A stretch of DNA of 41,644 bases from a virus (lineage: Duplodnaviria > Heunggongvirae > Uroviricota > Caudoviricetes), in the IMG/VR virus record IMGVR_UViG_2617271072_000007. The stretch is one strand, 5' to 3'. The position numbers were made by a program, and so were the translations under genes. The notes under the pieces are model-generated. The model ran no database searches and was not told the DNA's origin. It was given only the letters and a program-made list of their open reading frames with translations. This document shows positions 1,056 to 38,183 of this stretch, one piece after another (the first letter of the stretch is position 1; each line of letters begins with the position of its first letter).

Positions 1056-1121
1056 GGTAGATCTCCCTGACAAAAGCAGGAATGATGCCATTTGCTCGTT
1101 ATTTCTGCATTTTCATAAACG

Positions 1122-1149
1122 TTGGTTTTGGAGAAGGTGCTAACTGGGT
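1122..1149. repeat. left crossover (gix/hix-like) site of invertible segment
   Basis: TTTTCATAAACGTTGGTTTTGGAGAAGG; inverted match to 2919-2946 (about 18/20 in the core). Confidence 0.55.
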
Positions 1150-1417
1150 TATGTTACCTGGAGGAATGATAATTCAGCGTGTTTATCTTGGATTTCCTGT
1201 CGGAACCAATGTAAGACACATAACTTTCCCCCGGTCGTTTACAACAACGAACTATTCAATCTCAATTAACTGGAATGATATCGGTACTGCAACAACTGAA
1301 ACACAATCTCCAGCAAATGTGGCGGTTGTTCATCAAACAAAATCATTAACAGGGGCCAGCATCTGGCAGGCAGGTCCCGGGGGATTTAATGTGGACATTA
1401 TAGCGGTGGGGTATTGA
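1135..1417 (+). CDS. alternative tail-fibre C-terminal variable segment (silent orientation, no own start)
   Basis: Open frame beginning inside the left crossover site with GFGEG, matching GLGEG at the right site in the expressed fibre. Confidence 0.55.
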
Positions 1418-1848
1418 TATGTACGTATGGAGCGCTAAAGCAAATGGCTTTTTCCCCATATCGGAGAAAGAAAAAATTTGAGGCATCAGGTCTGTGGCCT
1501 GATGATGGTGTAATAGTCAGTGAAGAAGAACATAAAAAGTTATTTATGGATATTCCACCAAGAAAACAGATTGGAACACAGAATGGAAAACCAGCACTGA
1601 TAGATATTCCTCAGCCGACCAAAAAGGAATTAATCGCTATTGCTGAAGTTAAAAAATCCCAATTACGGGAAAAAGCTGACAGTGAAATATCCTGGCGTCA
1701 GGATGCTGTTGATGCTGATATCGCAACTGATGAAGAAACTTCAACTCTCACCGAATGGAAGAAATATCGTGTGCTGCTGATGCGTGTTGATACTTCAACA
1801 GCACCCGATATTGAATGGCCTACGCCTCCGGCAGTTCAGGCCAGATGA
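1414..1848 (+). CDS. alternative tail fibre assembly protein (silent orientation)
   Basis: C-terminus [13 protein letters not shown] parallels [13 protein letters not shown] of the expressed assembly protein; convergent overlap with it. Confidence 0.65.
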
Positions 1849-2422
1849 CATCCGGCGCGGTGCTGGTATCTGTTACCGTCACCGCGTCAATGTAATCCAG
1901 CACGGCGTTAAGTCGGGTTGTTTCTGCCTGCGTCAGCTTCCGCCCGGCCTGTAATTTCAGTTGAATCAGACTGATGGAAGCCATTGCAGTATCAATCAGT
2001 GACTGACGCTGTGCTTCTGCCGCTCCTACTGCGGCGCTATGCTGTGCCTCAGTATCGGTCACCCATTTCTCACCATCCCATTTATCGTATAGCGTTAATG
2101 GGGCGATAGTGGTTGTATTTTCAGGATAATCACCCGGTGCTGTGATTTCTTTCGATTCTCCTGTTTCGGTGCTATAGACGATTTCACTGCGATGGTCTGG
2201 CACATATTCCCACGAGTTATAATCTGCAGAACGGCAAATTGCATAACCAGCTTTATATGAGCCGGGAGCATCTAAACAGGAACATGCCGGAATGCCGACA
2301 CCCACAGCAAGATATTCAGTTGATGTGAAAATATATTCCCGTGTTTCACCATCATAGTTATAAACCGTAATATTTCCTGCCTGGGTGGCGATAAATTCGT
2401 TATTTAATACAGCGTAATCCAT
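1820..2422 (-). CDS. tail fibre assembly protein (expressed orientation)
   Basis: 200 aa; start overlaps the fibre stop (TAATG); typical Tfa-like sequence. Confidence 0.85.
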
Positions 2423-3288
2423 TATGCAGCCCTCACAATATACGCAAATGCCAGGTTACGTGGTCTGGTTTCTTTAATTAAAGAGGAGGCATCAGGTGAA
2501 CTCACTGATTCAGCACCATTTCTTCCACCAGTGGTATAAGTAAAAACTCGCTCACTGTTAGACCAGTAATCCACACCAACTGTTCTTGCTGATGAAAAAA
2601 TGGTTTCATCAGATATAACCTGTTCTATTCCATACGGGATATTAGTAACTGACCCCACTTTTGTAGGTATTCCATGATTATGAGAAATTACTGCATGCTC
2701 TTGATTCGTTAATAAAGTACGACCGCTATCCACTCCACGCCCGTCATCCCAGCCACGAATAAACTCACCACGTAAATCAGGCAATTTATTTGTCGGGTAA
2801 GCCTTTGCCAGTTCCGGGTATTCTTCAGCAGAAAAAGCCGCACCATTGCATTTCAACCAGCCTGTTGGCGGAGTGGCTGAAGGCCATGGAACAGGCACAC
2901 CAACAGGTAATGCAGAGCCTTCTCCCAAACCAAGGTTTTCGAGAGCCGTTTTCACCGTGCCGTCCGATTTGATATCGCCAAACGGATTCTTGCGGCTCAG
3001 GTATTCAACAGCAAACCCCGATCCCAGCAATTCAACAAAACCGGGCAGATCACCATTATCAAGCACATCCCGTTGCGTTTTATCACTTACAAACTGGGCC
3101 AGAGCTGCAGCAATAAAGCTGGCCTGCCGAATAACCTTATTGACTTGCGCACTGGAGGCTTTCCCTGCTGTAAATCCAGATAAAAGCACGGGCAACGCTT
3201 CCCATTCCTCCTGCGATATAACATTGGCATTTCGATCCGTTGCAAACGCTTTAAAGTCATTTTTCGCCATCAGAGTAATACTCCCCAT
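2422..3288 (-). CDS. tail fibre protein; constant N-terminal part plus invertible C-terminal part
   Basis: 288 aa; right crossover site lies inside the gene at about 2919-2946. Confidence 0.85.
2919..2946. repeat. right crossover site of invertible segment
   Basis: CCTTCTCCCAAACCAAGGTTTTCGAGAG, inverted copy of the 1122-1149 site. Confidence 0.55.
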
Positions 3289-6312: not shown

Positions 6313-6552
6313 TTACTGCTTGTTTGCTTCTAACGCTTCAGCTATTCGGCGAAGATACTCATTGTTTTTAAATGAAACCATGATGCACTCAAAGAATATT
6401 CGGCAAAATACAGCACATAACAAAAGCACTAAAGCGCCAGCAGCCTTCCCATTAACAAACGTTATAATGGCGGCAACAACCAGAAGTAACATTGTGATGC
6501 CATACAGAACGTTGATGATTTTTGGAGTTATTAATTTATCAAATCCGAACAT
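6313..6552 (-). CDS. small inner-membrane protein (moron)
   Basis: 79 aa, two hydrophobic helices, RBS AGGAA, followed by its own terminator. Confidence 0.6.
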   Translation of the reverse strand: MFGFDKLITPKIINVLYGITMLLLVVAAIITFVNGKAAGALVLLLCAVFCRIFFECIMVSFKNNEYLRRIAEALEANKQ

Positions 6553-28767: not shown

Positions 28768-29292
28768 TCATCTGGCAGGTTGTAACGGTGCAGGAATTTT
28801 GCCACTGACTTCTATATTTCGGGGAAATTTATATTCAGCGGAGCATTTATGACACTTGAGAATTTTATAAGCGGCATTAGAAGTATGGTATTGAAGTATA
28901 GACTTCATACCCGACTCATAGCATGTAGTACAAAGATAATGAGGCTTGAACTCAGGATCGTCAGTAGGCTTCAGTACATAGACCACCGTATTGGTAATCG
29001 GGTGGTACATTTCATAGTTCATTTTCTCACTATCCCAATCCTGTTTCTTTTCAAGAAGGGATTCGAGTTCAACAATGCGCTGTTTAGCTTCGTTCAAAAG
29101 CTCCGTTAGTGCGAATTGTCCAGTACGCGCATCAATTAGTTTATCAAGTAGATCGATAGTTTTACTTTTAACATTGTAATCCACCTGCAACGCATTAACT
29201 TCTTTTGCTAAATCAACAGCACCTTTCAAAGCACCACCAGCACTAGTGGCCGCCTCAGTTATACGCCGTACAAGTCCTTTTTCTTCAGACAT
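28768..29292 (-). CDS. coiled-coil protein with C-terminal C4 zinc ribbon; immunity-region cargo
   Basis: 174 aa; CTTC-x22-CHKC; transcribed towards the pL promoter, antisense to the early-left operon. Confidence 0.55.
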   Translation of the reverse strand: MSEEKGLVRRITEAATSAGGALKGAVDLAKEVNALQVDYNVKSKTIDLLDKLIDARTGQFALTELLNEAKQRIVELESLLEKKQDWDSEKMNYEMYHPITNTVVYVLKPTDDPEFKPHYLCTTCYESGMKSILQYHTSNAAYKILKCHKCSAEYKFPRNIEVSGKIPAPLQPAR

Positions 29293-31873: not shown

Positions 31874-32422
31874 ATGAAACTGAAGCTGAACAATGTTCGT
31901 CTGGCCTTCCCGTCTCTGTTTGAAGCTAAAACTGTAAACGGCGAAGGCGATCCGCGTTTCTCCGCAGTATTTTTAATGTCTCCCAAACACCCACAACTGG
32001 AAGAAATCCGTAAAGCTATGAAGCAGGTAGCGAAGGAAAAATGGGGGGAGAAGTGGGAGTCCATTTATAACCAGCTGGAGAAAAAACTCAATCTGTGCCT
32101 GCATGATGGTGATGAAAAAGCAGAGTATGAAGGCTTTCCCGGCAATTTCTTCCTGAACGCTGCTAACAAAGCGCGCCCAGCTGTTCTTGATCGCGATCGT
32201 TCGCCACTAATTCAGGCTGATGGACGTCCCTATGCAGGGTGCTATGTAAACGCCGTTATCGATATCTGGGCACAGGACAATAATTTCGGTAAACGCATTA
32301 ATGCCTCACTCGGCGGAGTCCAGTTCCTGCGAGACGGCGATGCATTCGCTGGCGGCGGAGTGGCAAGCGCTGACGATTTCGACGATATCAGCGAAGGCGC
32401 TGATGCTGAAGCACTAATTTAA
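31874..32422 (+). CDS. DUF2815-like protein (ssDNA-binding-type partner of DUF2800)
   Basis: 182 aa, N-terminus MKLKLNNVRLAFPSLFEAK, acidic C-terminus. Confidence 0.65.
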   Translation: MKLKLNNVRLAFPSLFEAKTVNGEGDPRFSAVFLMSPKHPQLEEIRKAMKQVAKEKWGEKWESIYNQLEKKLNLCLHDGDEKAEYEGFPGNFFLNAANKARPAVLDRDRSPLIQADGRPYAGCYVNAVIDIWAQDNNFGKRINASLGGVQFLRDGDAFAGGGVASADDFDDISEGADAEALI

Positions 32423-32474
32423 AAAATATTCATCCCCCAGCTACGTGCTGGGGTATCTCATGAGGGAAAGTATA

Positions 32475-33116
32475 ATGTCACAGCCCGTATTAACTAATCA
32501 CCTTAAAACTCAAATCATCAATAACGCACTTGAGAAAGCGGGTATTCCCAAACGTAAATCAGCACTACGAGCTACTCGTGTTGAATGGGCCGAACGTGTT
32601 CGGCTTGCAGCTATCGGGGGCGTAGAGAAAGAAGCTGAAATATTAAAAAATATAAAAAGATTGAATCCATGGTCACAAAAATCCTCTGATTCATTAAAAA
32701 CCAATAGTTCTTTAATTCGAAAAGATTGCTGCATATATCTCAATCTGGCTGGAGCCAGAGCAAACATTTATTTCAATGGCAACTACAGAGGTTATGAATC
32801 AGGAGCCCCCGAGCATATTAATAAAATAGCACCTGCAGAATTTACTCTACTTGGCGAAGATCCTCTGGTAACGGAGTTTTATAGCTTTGATGCTCTCTAC
32901 ACACAAATTAAAAGTGATGAAACCGAAATCATACAGAACGTCAGCGCGGCTCTAAATAAAGTTCGGACAGTAAAACGATTACTGGATGTATGGCCCGAAG
33001 CTAAAGAACTGCTTCCAACAGACGCACCGCCAGTCCCTTTAGCACCAGCAGTACATCGAGAGACATTAAATGAAATGATAGGCCTTCCTACCAATACAGT
33101 GTCTGATACTCAATAA
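32475..33116 (+). CDS. hypothetical protein, AT-rich
   Basis: 213 aa from MSQPVLT with RBS GAGGGA; track ORF 32445..33116 starts at an upstream GTG. Confidence 0.5.
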   Translation: MSQPVLTNHLKTQIINNALEKAGIPKRKSALRATRVEWAERVRLAAIGGVEKEAEILKNIKRLNPWSQKSSDSLKTNSSLIRKDCCIYLNLAGARANIYFNGNYRGYESGAPEHINKIAPAEFTLLGEDPLVTEFYSFDALYTQIKSDETEIIQNVSAALNKVRTVKRLLDVWPEAKELLPTDAPPVPLAPAVHRETLNEMIGLPTNTVSDTQ

Positions 33117-33799
33117 CAAGGGGGATGCTTATTATATGATTTTGAACGTTTTACAATCTCGTTAAGAGGCGTGAAATCAAAATCTCTGAATAACACATCA
33201 GGATACTTCGCTCTTGCTTTATCCAGCAGACCAGTTAAAGTATTTTTTGTGTTACCCAACATTGTATTAACCGCCACTACATGTCTAATTTCTGGAGGTT
33301 TATCTATACCACCAGAAATTGCTTCATTAAGAACCGACGCCAGTGGGGTTTGTCCCTTACTTGTTGAATCCCACAGCGTCATTAACAGACGAGCTGCGTC
33401 TATAAATAGCTTTTTGTCAGCATTTGGCTTGACAGTAATACCAGAACTACCTGAGCCAGAACCGGAACGTTCTATTGCTGCACTGGTATCCGATTTCATA
33501 GGATTAAATAACGGCAGCTCTGTACAACCGATACGCCGAATGAAATCCTTTGCAACATCTCTACCACAGAAAAAAGCCCCTGTACAATTTTCATCAGAGC
33601 GTTTTTTAAATGAAAAACAATAGTACTGATCGGTTAACGGATAACCGGAATAACTGGTTTTAGTTTGTCCAGTAATAAGTTTCAGGTGTGCAACAGGCTG
33701 AATAATAAAATCCCGAACTATCGCATCTTTTATGTCGTTACCACGGTGACAATAATATTCAGGTAATCCATTAGGCTGTCTCTTATTACCCACAGTCAT
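33110..33799 (-). CDS. hypothetical two-domain protein, AT-rich, antisense to the operon
   Basis: 229 aa; Cys/His-rich N-domain, SGSGSGSSG linker, C-domain; convergent 7-nt overlap with the preceding gene. Confidence 0.55.
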   Translation of the reverse strand: MTVGNKRQPNGLPEYYCHRGNDIKDAIVRDFIIQPVAHLKLITGQTKTSYSGYPLTDQYYCFSFKKRSDENCTGAFFCGRDVAKDFIRRIGCTELPLFNPMKSDTSAAIERSGSGSGSSGITVKPNADKKLFIDAARLLMTLWDSTSKGQTPLASVLNEAISGGIDKPPEIRHVVAVNTMLGNTKNTLTGLLDKARAKYPDVLFRDFDFTPLNEIVKRSKSYNKHPPCY

Positions 33800-33860
33800 T
33801 AGTTGTCTCCTTTAATTCATGATATCTAGCATTTAACCATATACCATATGAGGATATTTT

Positions 33861-35924
33861 ATGTCCAATATACTATGGGGCGACCTGGAAACCTATTGTG
33901 ACATTCCGATCAACAACGGTACCCATGCGTATGCCGAAGGCGTTGAAGTGATGCTTTTCGCATGGGCTATCAACGACGGGCCAGTAAACGTGTGGGATAT
34001 CACTGCCGGTGGTGGTATTCCACACGGCTTATACGAAGCAATCGCAGACCCTGAAACCCTGCTTTATTTCCATAACTCTCACTTCGACCGCACCGTTCTG
34101 CGTTATGCAATGCCGCGACTGGCACCGCCAGTCGAACGTTGGCGCGACACGATGGTGCAGGCGCTGGCGCACGGTCTCCCGGGGTCTCTGGGGGAACTCT
34201 GCGAAGTACTAGGCGTCCCGCAAGACAAAGCGAAGGACAAAGAAGGTAAAGCGCTGATCCAGCTGTTCTGTAAGCCACGCCCGAAAAACAGCAAACTGCG
34301 TCGGGCCACCAGTAAAACCCACCCGGAAGAATGGCGGCGCTTTGTTGCTTACGCCGGACTGGATATCGAGGCAATGCGCGAAGTCTATAAACGTCTGCCG
34401 AAGTGGAATTATCAGGGGACAGAACTGGCGCTCTGGCATCGTGATCAGCAGATCAATGACCGGGGCGTCTGCATGGACATGCAACTCGCACGCGCTGCGA
34501 TCGAAGCGGTAGACCAGGAACAAAAGCGCCTGGCAAAGCGTACACAGGAAATGACTGATGGCGAAGTGCAGGCAGCCACACAACGAGACACGTTGATTAA
34601 GCACATTGTTGAATCCTACGGTGTGGAGCTACCAGACATGCAACGCAGTACTCTGGAACGTCGTATTGCCGACCCCGATTTACCATCTGCCGTGAAAGAA
34701 CTGCTGGCTATCCGACTGCAGGCCAGTACTACCAGCACCAGTAAATACAAGGCACTGATGAAAGGCGTAAGCCACGACGGGCGCTTACGCGGTACGCTAC
34801 AGTTCTGCGGGGCGTCACGTACCGGTCGTTGGGCCGGACGGCTATTCCAGCCCCAGAATCTTCCCCGCCCTTCACTAAAACAGGAACAAATAGACGAAGG
34901 CATCGAAGCACTGAAAGCCGGATGTGCAGACCTGCTGTTTGACAATATCATGGAACTAACCAGTTCAGCGTTACGTGGCTGCATTATCGCGCCAACAGGC
35001 AAAAAACTGGTGGTAAGTGACTTGTCGAACATTGAAGGCCGTATGCTGGCATGGCTGGCAGGAGAAGAATGGAAACTGAATGCATTCAGAGAGTACGACG
35101 CCGGAACGGGTTCGGACTTATATAAACTGGCGTATGCAAAAGCTTTCGATATTGCACCAGATGATGTTGATAAACACATGCGTCAGATCGGTAAAGTCAT
35201 GGAGCTCGGTCTGGGTTATGGTGGTGGTGTATCGGCTTTCATCACTTTTGCGCTGGTTTACGGTCTCGATCTCGACGAGCTGGCGAACGCCGCACTGCCA
35301 AACATTCCCCGCGATGTTATCCGCGAGGCGAAAAGCTGGTACGACGAATCGGTTAAACGCAAGTCAACCTACGGGCTTTCTGAACGGGTATTTATCGCCT
35401 GCGACTCACTTAAACGTCTCTGGCGCAGGGCGCACCCGGCGACCTGCGATTTCTGGTACGAACTGGAGCGCACCGTCCGCACAGCAATCGCCACACCGCA
35501 AAAAACATTGTATTGCGGCTATCTTAAAATCCGACGTGATGGCGCGTGGCTGCGCATACAGCTACCATCCGGACGCGCTGTATGCTACCCGTCTCCGGTT
35601 ATCGAAAAAGGGAATATCACCTACATGGGTGTTAACTCTTATTCGCGTAAATGGCAACGACTCAAAACCTACGGCGGAAAGCTGGTGGAGAACGTCACCC
35701 AGGCAGCCGCCCGCGACGTTCTGGCCGGAAACATGCCGCTTATCGAAGATGCCGGTTACAGCATTGTGTTGACGGTACACGACGAGGTGATCACCGAAGC
35801 ACCTGACACAGAAGATTTCAACGATAAAGCGCTTTCCGCGCTTCTCTCCACTAACCCCGAATGGGCACCCGATATTCCGCTGAATGCTGGCGGCTTTGAG
35901 GCGTACCACTACCGTAAGGAGTAA
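33861..35924 (+). CDS. family-A DNA polymerase with 3'-5' exonuclease domain
   Basis: 687 aa; DLETY exonuclease motif, [11 protein letters not shown] (motif A), [12 protein letters not shown] (motif B), VHDEV (motif C). Confidence 0.9.
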
Positions 35925-35931
35925 TACAAAG

Positions 35932-36960
35932 TCACTTAAAATCCCTAGATAACATCTGCGAAGCAGCTGATGCTGTATAAACTCCAGTATGTTTTATTTC
36001 TGCAGCTATTTTGTAGCCATCCTCCTTAAACTGCGTAAGCATTGAGCTTAAGGAACCAAGTTTTTTAGTATTCAACACCATTCTAACGACAGTTCCTTCA
36101 TGATAATGACCTAACTCTATATGCTTCTTTCCGTGTTCATCTAGATATATTGCATGGTCACCGCTACAAATAAGAAAACTACCGCCAAGTTTACATATAC
36201 GGCTGATCATATAAAGGCCAAATCCCGAATTATGCCAAGGATTTCTTGTATTGATTCTCGCCCCCTTAAAATTTTTACTAGAAATAGATGGCATTAACGC
36301 TAACTGAATGGCTTCAGAATCATTATCAGCTTCTATATAAGGGTTCTTCGATAGAGATTTTTTCATTCCTATACCATTATCAGAAATTGTTATTTCAACA
36401 CGGTCATAAGAAGGCCAATACTGTGCACAATATTCAATCACCTTTGAATCACTATGTTCCACAACATTACGCATAATTTCCCTAATAGAAAATGTCAAAG
36501 CATCAATGAGGTCGCCTTCTTCTTGGCGAGCAAGAATCTTTGCTAATTTACCAGATCGTTCCTCAACTATCTCTTGCACCTCAGTATATTTATCGTTAGC
36601 TTCATCTATAACTGTTTGAACACGAAGAATTGTAAATGGAACAAAATTATTATTTCCATCTGTACATCCCGGTTCACGGCCATGCTTTAACCCGAAGGCT
36701 CGAAAGAATGCCATATTTGCGGCATAATCCTTATTCTCATGCCCGCTACAAAAAAGTTTAAAACCATCAATGTTCTTTTTCTGTTTTCGATGGAAGTCTC
36801 GAATATGCTTAGCAACATAAACCATTGTAAATGGTTCAATCCTTCCCATATGCGAAAAATCGATTGTTATTTGCTGTTGACCTGAATGTTTTTCAATTTC
36901 ATTGCAAAAATTAAATATCTTTTCAGGATTACATGAAGAGGGAAATAAGATTCGTGACAT
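35932..36960 (-). CDS. GHKL-type (histidine-kinase-like) ATPase with unknown N-terminal domain; cargo gene
   Basis: 342 aa; N-box NVVEHSDS, G1 DNGIGM, G2 GFGLYM; AT-rich; opposite strand to the operon. Confidence 0.65.
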   Translation of the reverse strand: MSRILFPSSCNPEKIFNFCNEIEKHSGQQQITIDFSHMGRIEPFTMVYVAKHIRDFHRKQKKNIDGFKLFCSGHENKDYAANMAFFRAFGLKHGREPGCTDGNNNFVPFTILRVQTVIDEANDKYTEVQEIVEERSGKLAKILARQEEGDLIDALTFSIREIMRNVVEHSDSKVIEYCAQYWPSYDRVEITISDNGIGMKKSLSKNPYIEADNDSEAIQLALMPSISSKNFKGARINTRNPWHNSGFGLYMISRICKLGGSFLICSGDHAIYLDEHGKKHIELGHYHEGTVVRMVLNTKKLGSLSSMLTQFKEDGYKIAAEIKHTGVYTASAASQMLSRDFK

Positions 36961-37320: not shown

Positions 37321-37905
37321 TTAATCCGTATTTTTAACACGTGTTTCGAAACACTCTTTTAATTTAGCTATTTCCTTTTTAGAGGACATAACTGTGAATT
37401 TCATCCCTTTTAAATCATTAACAAATTCAAATTTTGCGCTATTGGACTCACAATCACCAACAACAAAACCACTACCAAATGAATTGAGCAACACTTTAGT
37501 ATTACTACCATCTACCATATAATATTCGTTATTTTTAAATGCAGTAACCTTCCCGAAGGTATAGCTCAATATCAATAATGTCATCACCCCTAAAGGAAAA
37601 GCTGATTTTAGGATTTTTAAATCGATATAATAAAATACGTCTTTATACTCTGCAAGCCTCCCAAACTTTCTAATGCTATCCATATGATGTTCGTGTCTCT
37701 TACTATGGATTGACGCGGACACCGCATTGTGGTAATTCAACAAAAGCAGAGCAAATAATAAAATATCTCCAACACTCATCACAGAGGTTTCGGAGAAATA
37801 ACCAAAAGGCCAATGAAATCCTATTATGTAAAAATTAGGTATTAGCATAACCACTATAAATATAATAAATGGAACATAATATTTCCCTTTCAAATCAAAC
37901 ATCAA
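37321..37905 (-). CDS. membrane protein, AT-rich cargo
   Basis: 194 aa; three N-terminal hydrophobic helices plus about 80-aa soluble domain; likely ATG at 37902. Confidence 0.6.
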   Translation of the reverse strand: MMFDLKGKYYVPFIIFIVVMLIPNFYIIGFHWPFGYFSETSVMSVGDILLFALLLLNYHNAVSASIHSKRHEHHMDSIRKFGRLAEYKDVFYYIDLKILKSAFPLGVMTLLILSYTFGKVTAFKNNEYYMVDGSNTKVLLNSFGSGFVVGDCESNSAKFEFVNDLKGMKFTVMSSKKEIAKLKECFETRVKNTD

Positions 37906-38183
37906 TGTCGCGTATAAGGCACCGAGAAATAAAAACTAAAAAACAAAAGCCATACAGCCGAATACAATAGCGTATTTAAATCTATTTTAATAAAAAAGGG
38001 CTGGATAGCCATAATACGATGCAACACCTTTCTGAAAAGAATATGCCATCGCATAAGCTAAACGCTGAAAAAACAGTTAATAAAGAAACTTGTTTTGTAA
38101 GTATTTTTGCCAGGGGCATACCCGCCTCCGTTAGTTATATATATAGAGAGAGAATTGACACATATTCTACCATAGGTGTATTA

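What the first reader, a model, noticed from the sequence alone, without database searches (positions are those of the whole stretch)
32445..33799. Convergent AT-rich two-gene cassette between DUF2815 and the DNA polymerase
Two unknown proteins (213 aa on plus, 229 aa on minus) overlap tail to tail by 7 nt inside the early-left operon, and both are lower in GC than flanking genes. The minus-strand protein has a Cys/His-rich N-domain, an SGSGSGSSG flexible linker and a second domain. The convergent pairing and compositional contrast suggest a horizontally acquired module, possibly toxin/immunity or defence/anti-defence.
Basis: partly seen in the sequence, partly recalled or inferred. Interest (0 to 1): 0.55.

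Follow-up and report, generated by a model that had tools for sequence, protein, structure and literature searches.

The report
Prophage hotspot cargo: Nmad5 plus orphan gene
The two AT-rich genes are real but are not a functional pair: they are separately exchangeable cargo in a variable slot of an E. coli prophage's replication operon, and the minus-strand gene belongs to an uncharacterised family that nearly always sits beside known anti-phage defence genes, which makes it a candidate new defence gene.

Summary
A 213-aa plus-strand ORF (32475-33116) and a 229-aa minus-strand ORF (33110-33799) overlap tail to tail by 7 nt. Their GC is 0.41 and 0.39, against 0.49-0.54 in the flanking genes.

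The window is an E. coli prophage next to yfhL. Related prophages stop being homologous exactly at the DUF2815 stop codon (32422) and resume exactly at the DNA polymerase ATG (33861). Between these points they carry unrelated cargo: a SIR2 protein (PADLOC PDC-S25), a BRO-N protein, or 199-aa or 209-aa orphans.

The plus gene is an Nmad5-family protein (PF18757, E 1e-52). It is a dispensable accessory gene also found in lambdoid phages.

The minus gene belongs to PF27729 "UCP028583" (567 clusters). It is a soluble, basic, two-domain protein with no detectable fold relative. Outside E. coli it never sits next to Nmad5. In 11 of 13 independent contexts it lies within 7 kb of defence genes (Gabija, ThsB arrays, a type III-A retron, type I R-M, IetAS, Lamassu, BstA, SIR2).

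A toxin/immunity or defence/anti-defence pairing is not supported. Horizontal acquisition is supported. A lysogen-expressed single-gene defence role for the minus gene is the best hypothesis but is untested.

The parts
31874..32422 (+). DUF2815 / Enc34-type (Gp2.5-like) ssDNA-binding protein; left boundary of the slot
   Evidence: PF10991 E 2e-44 and phrog_112. Homology between cargo variants ends at its stop codon.
32423..33860 (.). Exchangeable cargo module (1438 bp) filling the DUF2815|PolA slot
   Evidence: blastn against L001, L026, L027, L028 and L029: identity of 96-99% stops at 32422 and resumes at 33861 (at 33867-33882 in L027 and L028). The same slot holds other cargo in relatives.
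32435..32453 (+). 7-bp GC-rich hairpin (CCCCAGC/GCUGGGG) between DUF2815 and Nmad5; no U-tract follows
   Evidence: RNA fold -17.1 kcal/mol, z -2.4. Function unknown.
32475..33116 (+). Nmad5-family protein, 213 aa, same strand as the replication operon
   Evidence: PF18757 at 179.6 bits (cut-off 27), covering 3-206 of 206 profile positions; phrog_1965. RefSeq annotates it as an Nmad5 family protein. GC3 0.285.
33076..33093 (-). Weak terminator-like hairpin 17 nt downstream of the minus gene's stop codon, inside the 3' end of Nmad5
   Evidence: Consensus scan only: 7 pairs, 3 of them GC, followed by TTTCATTT. Terminator-like sites are not enriched over shuffles.
33110..33799 (-). UCP028583 (PF27729) family protein, 229 aa; candidate lysogen-expressed accessory or defence gene
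   Evidence: The identical protein P0001 carries a precomputed PF27729 hit. The family has 567 clusters. AlphaFold2 model: pLDDT 81.9, pTM 0.80.
33491..33772 (-). N-terminal alpha/beta domain (residues 10-103), the most conserved part of the protein
   Evidence: Domain model pLDDT 93. Invariant or near-invariant residues: R19, H38, Q45, K47, S49, Y59, Y60, F62, G79, A83, F98, N99.
33437..33490 (-). Disordered Gly/Ser linker (residues 104-121, includes SGSGSGSSG)
   Evidence: pLDDT below 50. Length and sequence vary across the family.
33113..33436 (-). C-terminal helical domain (residues 122-229)
   Evidence: Six helices spanning 127-223. Conserved A135, W143, P169, N178, F209.
33833..33846 (-). 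Conserved 14-mer TGGTATATGGTTAA in the divergent intergenic region between the minus gene and PolA; resembles an extended -10 element (TGnTATAtG) on the minus-gene strand
   Evidence: Identical in L006, L023, L024 and L031, whose surrounding DNA is only about 68% identical. There is a single exact copy in the window. Its role as a promoter is inferred.
33861..35924 (+). Family A DNA polymerase; right boundary of the slot
   Evidence: RefSeq annotation. Homology between cargo variants resumes at its ATG.

Best explanation
The 'cassette' is the current content of a recombination hotspot between the DUF2815 ssDNA-binding gene and the family A DNA polymerase gene. The host is a temperate E. coli prophage integrated next to yfhL. 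The two genes are independent.

(1) The plus-strand gene is an Nmad5-family accessory gene, read with the replication operon. It is dispensable for this phage family.

(2) The minus-strand gene is a stand-alone member of the uncharacterised UCP028583 (PF27729) family.

Most likely mechanism:
- The minus gene is transcribed from its own signal in the 61-bp region it shares divergently with PolA. This runs antisense to the phage operon, so the protein would be made in the lysogen while the operon is repressed.
- The product is a soluble, basic, two-domain protein. The conserved N-terminal alpha/beta domain probably binds or processes nucleic acid or a nucleotide. The C-terminal helical domain probably senses or oligomerises.
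- It protects the lysogen against other phages as a single-gene defence or superinfection-exclusion factor.
- On induction, read-through of the operon across the 7-nt tail-to-tail overlap would dampen its expression.

Shown: the gene identities, the hotspot anatomy, the independence of the two genes, and the association of the family with defence genes. Inferred: the promoter, expression in the lysogen, the biochemical activity, and the protective phenotype.

The confidence value of 0.5 is for the whole statement. It is about 0.85 for the anatomy and independence and about 0.45 for the defence function.
For: Hotspot:
- Breakpoints lie exactly at 32422 and 33861.
- Alternative cargo in relatives: a 209-aa orphan (L001, L029), Nmad5 allele B plus an 89-aa orphan (L002), a 199-aa orphan (L026), a BRO-N protein (L027), and a SIR2 protein matching PADLOC PDC-S25 at E 4e-158 (L028).
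- The next slot (PolA|VRR-NUC) holds a GHKL ATPase here and a TIR protein elsewhere (PDC-S35, E 2e-109).
- The cargo is AT-rich.
- Only 27 of about 157 E. coli genomes with this backbone carry the minus gene.

Independence of the two genes.

The minus gene is real and acts alone:
- The family has 567 clusters at 50% identity, almost all 195-235 aa with no fusions.
- The structure models are confident.
- It occurs as a single cassette in the Vibrio parahaemolyticus chromosomal integron.

Defence association, 11 of 13 non-redundant contexts:
- GajA/GajB 33 nt upstream on the same strand (E 9e-216 and 6e-126).
- Four ThsB genes plus PDC-M50, with the family member 13 nt downstream.
- Type III-A retron RT plus PRTase.
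- Two type I R-M islands.
- IetA/IetS, LmuB, BstA, and a 1056-aa SIR2 protein.
- This prophage slot itself.

Other support:
- The gene has lower GC than its flanks in 10 of 11 loci.
- The protein is basic and soluble, and both domains are basic across the family.
- A 14-mer upstream of the gene is conserved in diverged phages.
Against: - There is no experimental phenotype.
- No hit to any of 5027 PADLOC models for 50 family members.
- The sigma-70 scan found no promoter upstream of the gene. The proposed -10 lacks the canonical final T.
- The gene sits at the same place next to PolA in two phage lineages (56-58% identity versus 70-72% for PolA). This could also mean a long-standing phage-beneficial role.
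- Guilt by association cannot separate a defence effector from a regulator or another island passenger. Two contexts (L007, L042) have no defence neighbour.
- The 13 contexts were sampled by hand, not systematically.
Confidence: 0.5

Rival explanations
1. The minus-strand protein serves the phage, as a counter-defence factor or replication-linked accessory protein, rather than the host. The slot would then be an anti-defence or accessory locus of the early operon, with Nmad5 as a second such gene.
For: - It sits at the same position, divergent from PolA, with a conserved intergenic 14-mer in two diverged phage lineages.
- Nmad5, its neighbour, is linked in the literature to escape from Tmn defence in Dhillonvirus (PMC11846954).
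- Early phage regions often hold anti-defence genes (general knowledge).
Against: - It is on the opposite strand to the operon.
- It is absent from about 83% of E. coli prophages of this backbone, from all 50,697 deposited phage genomes and from BFVD folds.
- Most homologues are chromosomal, in defence islands, R-M islands and integron arrays rather than in phages.
- The alternative cargo in the same slot is a SIR2 defence candidate.
Confidence: 0.15
2. The minus-strand protein is a nucleic-acid-binding regulator or accessory subunit that travels with many different defence systems (in the manner of BrxR/CapW-type regulators). It would not be an autonomous effector. In the prophage it could bind the conserved 14-mer and control the divergent promoters.
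For: - Both domains are basic across the family.
- It lies directly downstream, on the same strand, of Gabija (33 nt), a ThsB array (13 nt) and a HigB/HTH-M78 pair (7 nt).
- A conserved motif lies in its own upstream region.
Against: - It occurs as an isolated integron cassette and as an isolated chromosomal gene with no partner.
- Its partners are unrelated to one another, and the 14-mer is absent from the chromosomal loci.
Confidence: 0.15
3. One reading: Nmad5 and the minus-strand gene form a toxin/immunity (or defence/anti-defence) pair, held together by the convergent overlap.
For: - They overlap by 7 nt and have the same GC3 (0.285 and 0.283).
- In E. coli, 27 genomes carry the minus gene and 27 carry the matching Nmad5 allele.
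- A Dhillonvirus nmad5 could not be cloned, apparently because it is toxic (PMC11846954).
Against: - The E. coli copies are >=99% identical, so they amount to one acquisition event and not independent co-occurrence.
- Nmad5 allele B pairs with an unrelated 89-aa gene, and the breakpoint at 33089 isolates the minus gene as its own exchange unit.
- None of the 12 other family contexts contains Nmad5. In related phages the neighbour is DUF2303.
- 164 phage records carry Nmad5 and none carries the minus gene.
- The genes are convergent, not co-transcribed.
Confidence: 0.04
4. The minus gene is a selfish or neutral passenger with no selectable function in the lysogen, for example a decaying remnant.
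For: - Function is unknown.
- The flanking Nmad5 shows decay in some genomes: frameshifted in UPEC 26-1, truncated in EH2252, and an IS1 in the region in ECZP248.
Against: - The ORF is intact in all 27 genomes at >=99% identity.
- The family is conserved from Enterobacterales to Bacillus and Eubacterium, with invariant residues and confident fold predictions.
Confidence: 0.06

Closest known systems
Defence hotspots of P2-like prophages and P4-like satellites in E. coli (Rousset et al. 2022, PMC9122126)
   Same: A fixed position between conserved phage genes that holds many unrelated, AT-rich cargo genes in different lysogens. Here the cargo includes SIR2 and TIR proteins.
   Different: - A different phage family: a yfhL-integrated myovirus-like prophage with a VapE / DUF2800 / DUF2815 / PolA / VRR-NUC / helicase replication module.
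- The hotspots, at least three, lie inside the replication operon.
- None of this cargo has been tested.
- I found no paper describing hotspots in this phage family.
Nmad5 family, PF18757 (named by Iyer et al. 2013, NAR 41:7635, cited from the reference list of PMC11846954; studied in Dhillonvirus in PMC11846954)
   Same: The plus-strand protein matches the model over its full length. As in Dhillonvirus, the gene is dispensable for the phage: it is absent from about 100 of 157 related prophages.
   Different: - No nucleotide-modifying enzyme is annotated anywhere in this prophage.
- The Dhillonvirus proteins are longer and lie near the capsid genes.
- The biochemical activity is unknown in every case.
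PADLOC candidate systems PDC-S25 (SIR2) and PDC-S35 (TIR)
   Same: They occupy the same slots in sister prophages (ECONIH2, vB_EcoM-606R2). Like the minus gene, they are single genes.
   Different: No sequence or fold relation to the minus gene. They carry recognisable NADase-type domains and the minus gene has none.
Single-gene prophage or integron-borne defence proteins such as BstA
   Same: One gene carried by prophages and integron cassettes. BstA sits two cassettes away from a family member in the V. parahaemolyticus integron.
   Different: No homology. BstA has a defined DNA-binding architecture and a tested abortive-infection phenotype (general knowledge). The minus gene has neither.
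DUF151 / bifunctional nuclease domain (TM0160, PDB 1sj5)
   Different: The score is marginal (rmsd 3.6 Å, 10% identity). No family member hits the Pfam model. This is a lead only.

Membership tests
Nmad5 (PF18757), plus-strand ORF | Full-length match to the family HMM above the gathering score | tested here: met
   179.6 bits against a cut-off of 27; residues 16-215 match profile positions 3-206 of 206. Also phrog_1965, E 2.5e-55.
Nmad5 (PF18757), plus-strand ORF | Genomic linkage to nucleotide- or DNA-modifying enzymes (the basis of the family name) | tested here: not met
   The RefSeq annotation of the whole prophage lists no modification enzyme. The neighbours are DUF2815 and the minus gene. 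In lambdoid phages the homologue sits between nun and cIII, or in the nin region.
UCP028583 (PF27729), minus-strand ORF | Match to the family model and shared two-domain architecture | tested here: met
   The 100%-identical protein P0001 and all 62 homologues carry a precomputed PF27729 hit; the name comes. The model is missing from the local Pfam copy. Conserved columns in both domains.
Type II toxin-antitoxin pair (Nmad5 + minus gene) | Adjacent, co-transcribed genes that co-occur across independent lineages | tested here: not met
   The genes are convergent. Co-occurrence is limited to one >=99% identical allele set. Nmad5 is absent from all other family contexts.
Type II toxin-antitoxin pair (Nmad5 + minus gene) | Either protein matches a known toxin or antitoxin family | tested here: not met
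   No such hit in Pfam, NCBIfam or PADLOC.
Known anti-phage defence systems (PADLOC-DB v2.0.0) | Match to a model of a known or candidate defence protein | tested here: not met
   Only a chance-level IetA hit at E 0.03. Among 50 family members, no PADLOC family is matched by more than one member.
Anti-phage defence gene (generic, by association) | Enrichment next to known defence genes in unrelated genomes | tested here: met
   11 of 13 hand-sampled non-redundant contexts have a PADLOC or classical defence gene within 7 kb. There is no systematic background control.
Anti-phage defence gene (generic) | Protection against phage when expressed; loss of protection in a knockout | not testable with these tools
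   Requires plaque assays.
Prophage moron / accessory hotspot | Sharp breakpoints against conserved backbone genes, and unrelated cargo at the same site in relatives | tested here: met
   Breakpoints at 32422 and 33861. At least six cargo types. The cargo proteins are unrelated to the minus gene by hhalign.
Prophage moron / accessory hotspot | Composition different from the backbone | tested here: met
   GC3 0.28 against about 0.5. The region lies in the lowest 4.6% of windows.
Prophage moron / accessory hotspot | Own promoter and terminator, expression in the lysogen | tested here: inconclusive
   No consensus sigma-70 hit upstream and only a weak terminator-like hairpin. A conserved 14-mer resembling an extended -10 is present. 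No expression data.
   Of the 7 Cys/His residues in the N-domain, only H38 (47 of 50) and C78 (44 of 50) are conserved. C61 is I, V or L in about half of the family. There is no CxxC or HxxH pattern.
DUF151 / bifunctional nuclease | Significant fold or profile similarity | tested here: inconclusive

The most novel reading that the evidence does not exclude
UCP028583 (PF27729) is a new family of single-protein anti-phage defence with a previously unseen two-domain fold. It spreads as a stand-alone module through prophage hotspots, chromosomal integron cassettes and defence islands, from Enterobacterales to Firmicutes. In addition, this E. coli prophage family carries at least three unreported defence hotspots inside its replication operon.
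Probability: 0.4. Interest if true: 0.6.

Novelty: new member of a known kind. Interest (0 to 1): 0.42.

Why it matters
If the minus-strand gene protects lysogens, it adds a defence family that PADLOC v2.0.0 does not contain and that shows no recognisable effector domain. Its mechanism could therefore be new.

The three variable slots in this prophage's replication operon (DUF2815|PolA, PolA|VRR-NUC, VRR-NUC|helicase) would be a compact place to mine further candidates, as was done for the P2/P4 hotspots. Backbones of this kind occur in about 3% of complete E. coli genomes (157 of 5426), including pathogenic and probiotic strains.

If it does not protect, the finding is an ordinary moron locus.

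Tried and rejected
- **Known domains for the 229-aa protein.** Pfam, PHROGs, NCBIfam and PADLOC gave nothing, singly and for 50 family members.
- **Sequence search of PDB chains with the family profile.** No hits at E <= 10.
- **Foldseek against BFVD.** Nothing.
- **Foldseek against AFDB.** The library was not available.
- **Domain fusions as a functional clue.** Of 150 top representatives only a few are longer. One carries a PDDEXK_2 fragment and one a DUF5710 tail, with no recurrent fusion.
- **Zinc-finger idea.** Rejected, because the Cys/His residues are not conserved.
- **Are the 209-aa and 199-aa slot occupants divergent relatives of the minus gene?** No (hhalign probability below 1%).
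- **Rfam scan of 32300-34000.** No RNA family.
- **Genome-contig scan.** Only 4 loci with a usable pattern; the first alignment was too diverse to scan.
- **Literature.** No paper mentions UCP028583, PF27729 or WP_000215799.
- **Iyer et al. 2013 (origin of the Nmad5 name).** Not held, so it could not be read.
Full report
**1. The observation**

The ORF listing shows a plus-strand ORF at 32445-33116. It is 223 aa from GTG. A minus-strand ORF of 229 aa lies at 33110-33799, behind AAAGGAGA. The two share 33110-33116, so the 7-nt tail-to-tail overlap is correct.

Per-gene composition:

| Gene | GC | GC3 |
|---|---|---|
| Plus gene (Nmad5) | 0.407 | 0.285 |
| Minus gene | 0.394 | 0.283 |
| DUF2815 | 0.494 | 0.475 |
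| DNA polymerase | 0.538 | 0.564 |

The gene mean is 0.49 (sd 0.05). Only 4.6% of 1355-nt windows are as AT-rich. All of those lie either here or in two further AT-rich inserts at 35.6-37.3 kb.

**2. Where the window comes from**

The window is an E. coli prophage. It is 99.9% identical to one in strain MINF_2E, integrated beside yfhL. The prophage has myovirus-like structural genes. Its rightward operon reads: DUF2800 nuclease, DUF2815 ssDNA-binding protein, [cassette], family A DNA polymerase, VRR-NUC, DEAD-box helicase, then integrase.

Against MINF_2E the window differs by 9 substitutions and 24 single-base indels. This pattern is typical of assembly error. Two of the indels (at about 32654-32659 and at 32685) fall inside the plus gene and rewrite residues 62-71.

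**3. The plus gene**

It is a full-length member of Pfam Nmad5 (PF18757, E 1e-52) and phrog_1965. It is therefore not an orphan, although no biochemical activity is known for the family.

tblastn finds relatives in 164 deposited phage genomes. These include lambdoid phages with no DNA polymerase. In mEp235 the gene lies between nun and cIII. In SPN3UB it lies in the nin region.

In Dhillonvirus the gene can be deleted, a K-to-E change in it lets the phage escape Tmn defence, and it could not be cloned (PMC11846954).

In E. coli complete genomes with this prophage backbone (157-159 genomes), only 59 carry Nmad5. 27 have this allele and 32 have a 78%-identical allele. It is frameshifted in UPEC 26-1. 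Nmad5 is therefore not a conserved replication factor of this phage family.

**4. The slot**

blastn of the region against sister prophages shows 96-99% identity up to the DUF2815 stop codon (32422). Identity resumes from the polymerase ATG (33861), with nothing in between. The 1438 bp from 32423 to 33860 is an exchange unit.

Sister prophages carry the following in its place:

| Cargo | Locus |
|---|---|
| 209-aa minus-strand orphan | vB_EcoM-606R2, H10407 |
| 199-aa orphan | L026 |
| BRO-N protein | L027 |
| Nmad5 allele B plus an 89-aa minus-strand orphan | L002 |
| 500-aa SIR2 protein (PADLOC PDC-S25, E 4e-158) | ECONIH2 |

Against the allele-B variant, homology continues to 33089 and resumes at 33834. 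The minus gene is therefore exchanged on its own, taking the last nine codons of Nmad5 with it.

The next slot (PolA|VRR-NUC) holds a GHKL ATPase in the window. Elsewhere it holds a TIR protein (PDC-S35, E 2e-109) or ANR plus DUF7446. A third slot (VRR-NUC|helicase) holds a 265-aa orphan here and DUF6338 elsewhere. Most of this cargo is AT-rich, with GC from 0.29 to 0.46.

This is the anatomy of a prophage accessory or defence hotspot, as described for P2 and P4 (PMC9122126).

**5. The minus gene: family and structure**

It has no hit in the local Pfam, PHROGs, NCBIfam or PADLOC libraries. The identical database protein carries a precomputed PF27729 hit, named UCP028583.

A profile search of 1.84 billion representatives finds 567 clusters. 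Almost all are 195-235 aa, with no recurrent fusion. Members come from Enterobacterales, Vibrio, Aliivibrio, Dyella, Bacillus and Eubacterium.

AlphaFold2 gives a confident two-domain model (pLDDT 81.9, pTM 0.80; the N-domain alone scores pLDDT 93):
- an alpha-beta-beta-beta-alpha domain (residues 14-100);
- a disordered Gly/Ser linker (104-121, which includes SGSGSGSSG);
- a six-helix domain (127-223).

Conservation is strongest in the N-domain: R19, H38, Q45, K47, S49, Y59, Y60, F62, G79, A83, F98, N99.

The protein is soluble with pI 9.2. Both domains are basic across the family. The Cys and His residues are not conserved as ligands, so it is not a zinc finger.

No solved or viral predicted structure resembles it convincingly:
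- BFVD: best E 0.37.
- PDB sequence profile search: no hits.

**6. Do the two genes belong together?**

In E. coli the minus gene occurs in 27 genomes, and the matching Nmad5 allele also occurs in 27, one of them truncated. All copies of the minus gene are >=99% identical, so this is one acquisition. Elsewhere the minus-gene family never neighbours Nmad5.

In Pantoea and related prophages (56-58% identity) it sits at the same place, divergent from PolA, but beside DUF2303.

Other contexts:

| Context | Locus |
|---|---|
| Single cassette in the V. parahaemolyticus chromosomal integron, two cassettes from BstA | L008-L011 |
| Between hsdR and hsdS/M, behind a HigB / HTH-M78 pair | L004 |
| Next to a 1056-aa SIR2 protein in Dickeya | L015 |
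| 5 kb from LmuB in Enterobacter | L016 |
| 2.5 kb from IetA/IetS on a Eubacterium element | L012 |
| 13 nt downstream of an array of four ThsB genes plus PDC-M50 | L036 |
| In a type I R-M / AbiJ-like island | L038 |
| 0.6 kb from a type III-A retron | L039 |
| 33 nt downstream of GajA/GajB in Bacillus, before a 1908-aa STAND-like NTPase | L041 |
| At the edge of an integrase/Zot element | L042 |
| Alone in a metagenome-assembled genome | L007 |

Counting this prophage slot, 11 of 13 non-redundant contexts have a recognised defence gene within 7 kb. The gene has lower GC than its flanks in 10 of 11 loci. It is absent from all 50,697 deposited phage genomes.

**7. Regulation**

The 61-bp region between the minus gene and PolA contains TGGTATATGGTTAA (33833-33846, minus strand). 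This 14-mer is identical in the Pantoea-type phages, although the surrounding DNA is only about 68% identical. On the minus-gene strand it resembles an extended -10 element, but it lacks the canonical last T. The consensus scan did not call a promoter there. A weak hairpin follows the minus gene's stop codon. Expression in the lysogen and silencing by convergent read-through on induction are inferences.

**8. Interpretation**

The best-supported reading is a prophage hotspot carrying two independent passengers:
- an Nmad5 accessory gene read with the operon;
- a stand-alone UCP028583 gene on the opposite strand.

The distribution of the UCP028583 family points to anti-phage defence or superinfection exclusion by a single basic two-domain protein.

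My confidence in the anatomy and in the independence of the two genes is high (about 0.85). My confidence in the defence function is moderate (about 0.45). The rivals are:
- a phage-beneficial or anti-defence factor;
- a regulator that travels with defence systems;
- a toxin/immunity pair with Nmad5 (largely refuted);
- a functionless passenger.

**9. Novelty and score**

Prophage defence hotspots and morons are well known, and Nmad5 is a known family. What is new is modest but concrete:
- an unflagged family, absent from PADLOC v2.0.0, with strong defence-island association and no recognisable fold;
- three hotspots inside the replication operon of a prophage family found in about 3% of complete E. 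coli genomes.

I rate it a new member of a known kind, with interest 0.42.

Noticed in passing
window 35932-36960 (- strand): A second AT-rich minus-strand insert (GC 0.361) between PolA and VRR-NUC. It is a 342-aa GHKL/HATPase_c protein (phrog_3364, weak DrmA N-terminal hit). Sister prophages carry a TIR protein (PADLOC PDC-S35) or ANR plus DUF7446 at this position, so it is a second cargo hotspot.
   Followed up: partly
window 37321-38119 (- strand): A third AT-rich insert (GC 0.325) between VRR-NUC and the DEAD-box helicase. It is a 265-aa hypothetical protein in RefSeq with hydrophobic N-terminal stretches and no family hit. In the window it is broken by 1-nt indels at 37936, 37997 and 38062. 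ECONIH2 carries DUF6338 plus a small ORF at this position.
   Followed up: partly
whole window versus NZ_LR890651.1 (L025): The window differs from its closest relative by 9 substitutions but 24 single-base indels. Many genes therefore have lengths that are not a multiple of three (for example the tape measure, terminase and VapE genes). This looks like homopolymer-type assembly error, so frameshifts in this window should not be read as biology.
   Followed up: yes
window 1117-2938: This segment next to the pinE-type recombinase gene (501-1055) is inverted relative to MINF_2E. It contains tail-fibre and tail-fibre-assembly genes, so it is a Pin-type invertible host-range segment caught in the other orientation.
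   Followed up: no
window 28768-29292 (- strand): Another low-GC (0.406, GC3 0.331) minus-strand orphan of 174 aa. It lies between the cI-like repressor and the start of the replication operon and has a coiled-coil N-terminus and a Cys-rich C-terminus. It may be a further moron.
   Followed up: no
L036 3597-7615 (metagenome scaffold): An operon-like array of four ThsB-type TIR genes plus a PDC-M50A-like gene, with no recognisable ThsA effector. A UCP028583 gene follows 13 nt downstream. This raises the question of whether UCP028583 can serve as the effector of a Thoeris-like system.
   Followed up: no
L041 4232-7453 (Bacillus wiedmannii): A UCP028583 homologue lies 33 nt downstream of GajA/GajB on the same strand, as if it were a third gene of a Gabija locus. 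In this genome it is truncated to 150 aa. A 209-aa version exists in B. cereus.
   Followed up: no
window 33833-33846 and L006, L023, L024, L031: The 14-mer TGGTATATGGTTAA is perfectly conserved in the intergenic region between the UCP028583 gene and PolA in prophages whose flanking DNA is only about 68% identical. It is absent from chromosomal UCP028583 loci. It is likely a regulatory site shared by the divergent genes.
   Followed up: partly
E. coli genomes ECZP248, EH2252, UPEC 26-1: There are signs of decay around Nmad5 in some lysogens: an IS1 in the region (ECZP248), only the last third of Nmad5 retained (EH2252), and a frameshifted allele B (UPEC 26-1). The UCP028583 ORF stays intact in all 27 carriers.
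   Followed up: no
window 6313-6552 (- strand): A small DUF4282 gene with GC 0.375 is embedded among baseplate and spike genes of GC about 0.52. It is another compositional outlier inside the structural module.
   Followed up: no
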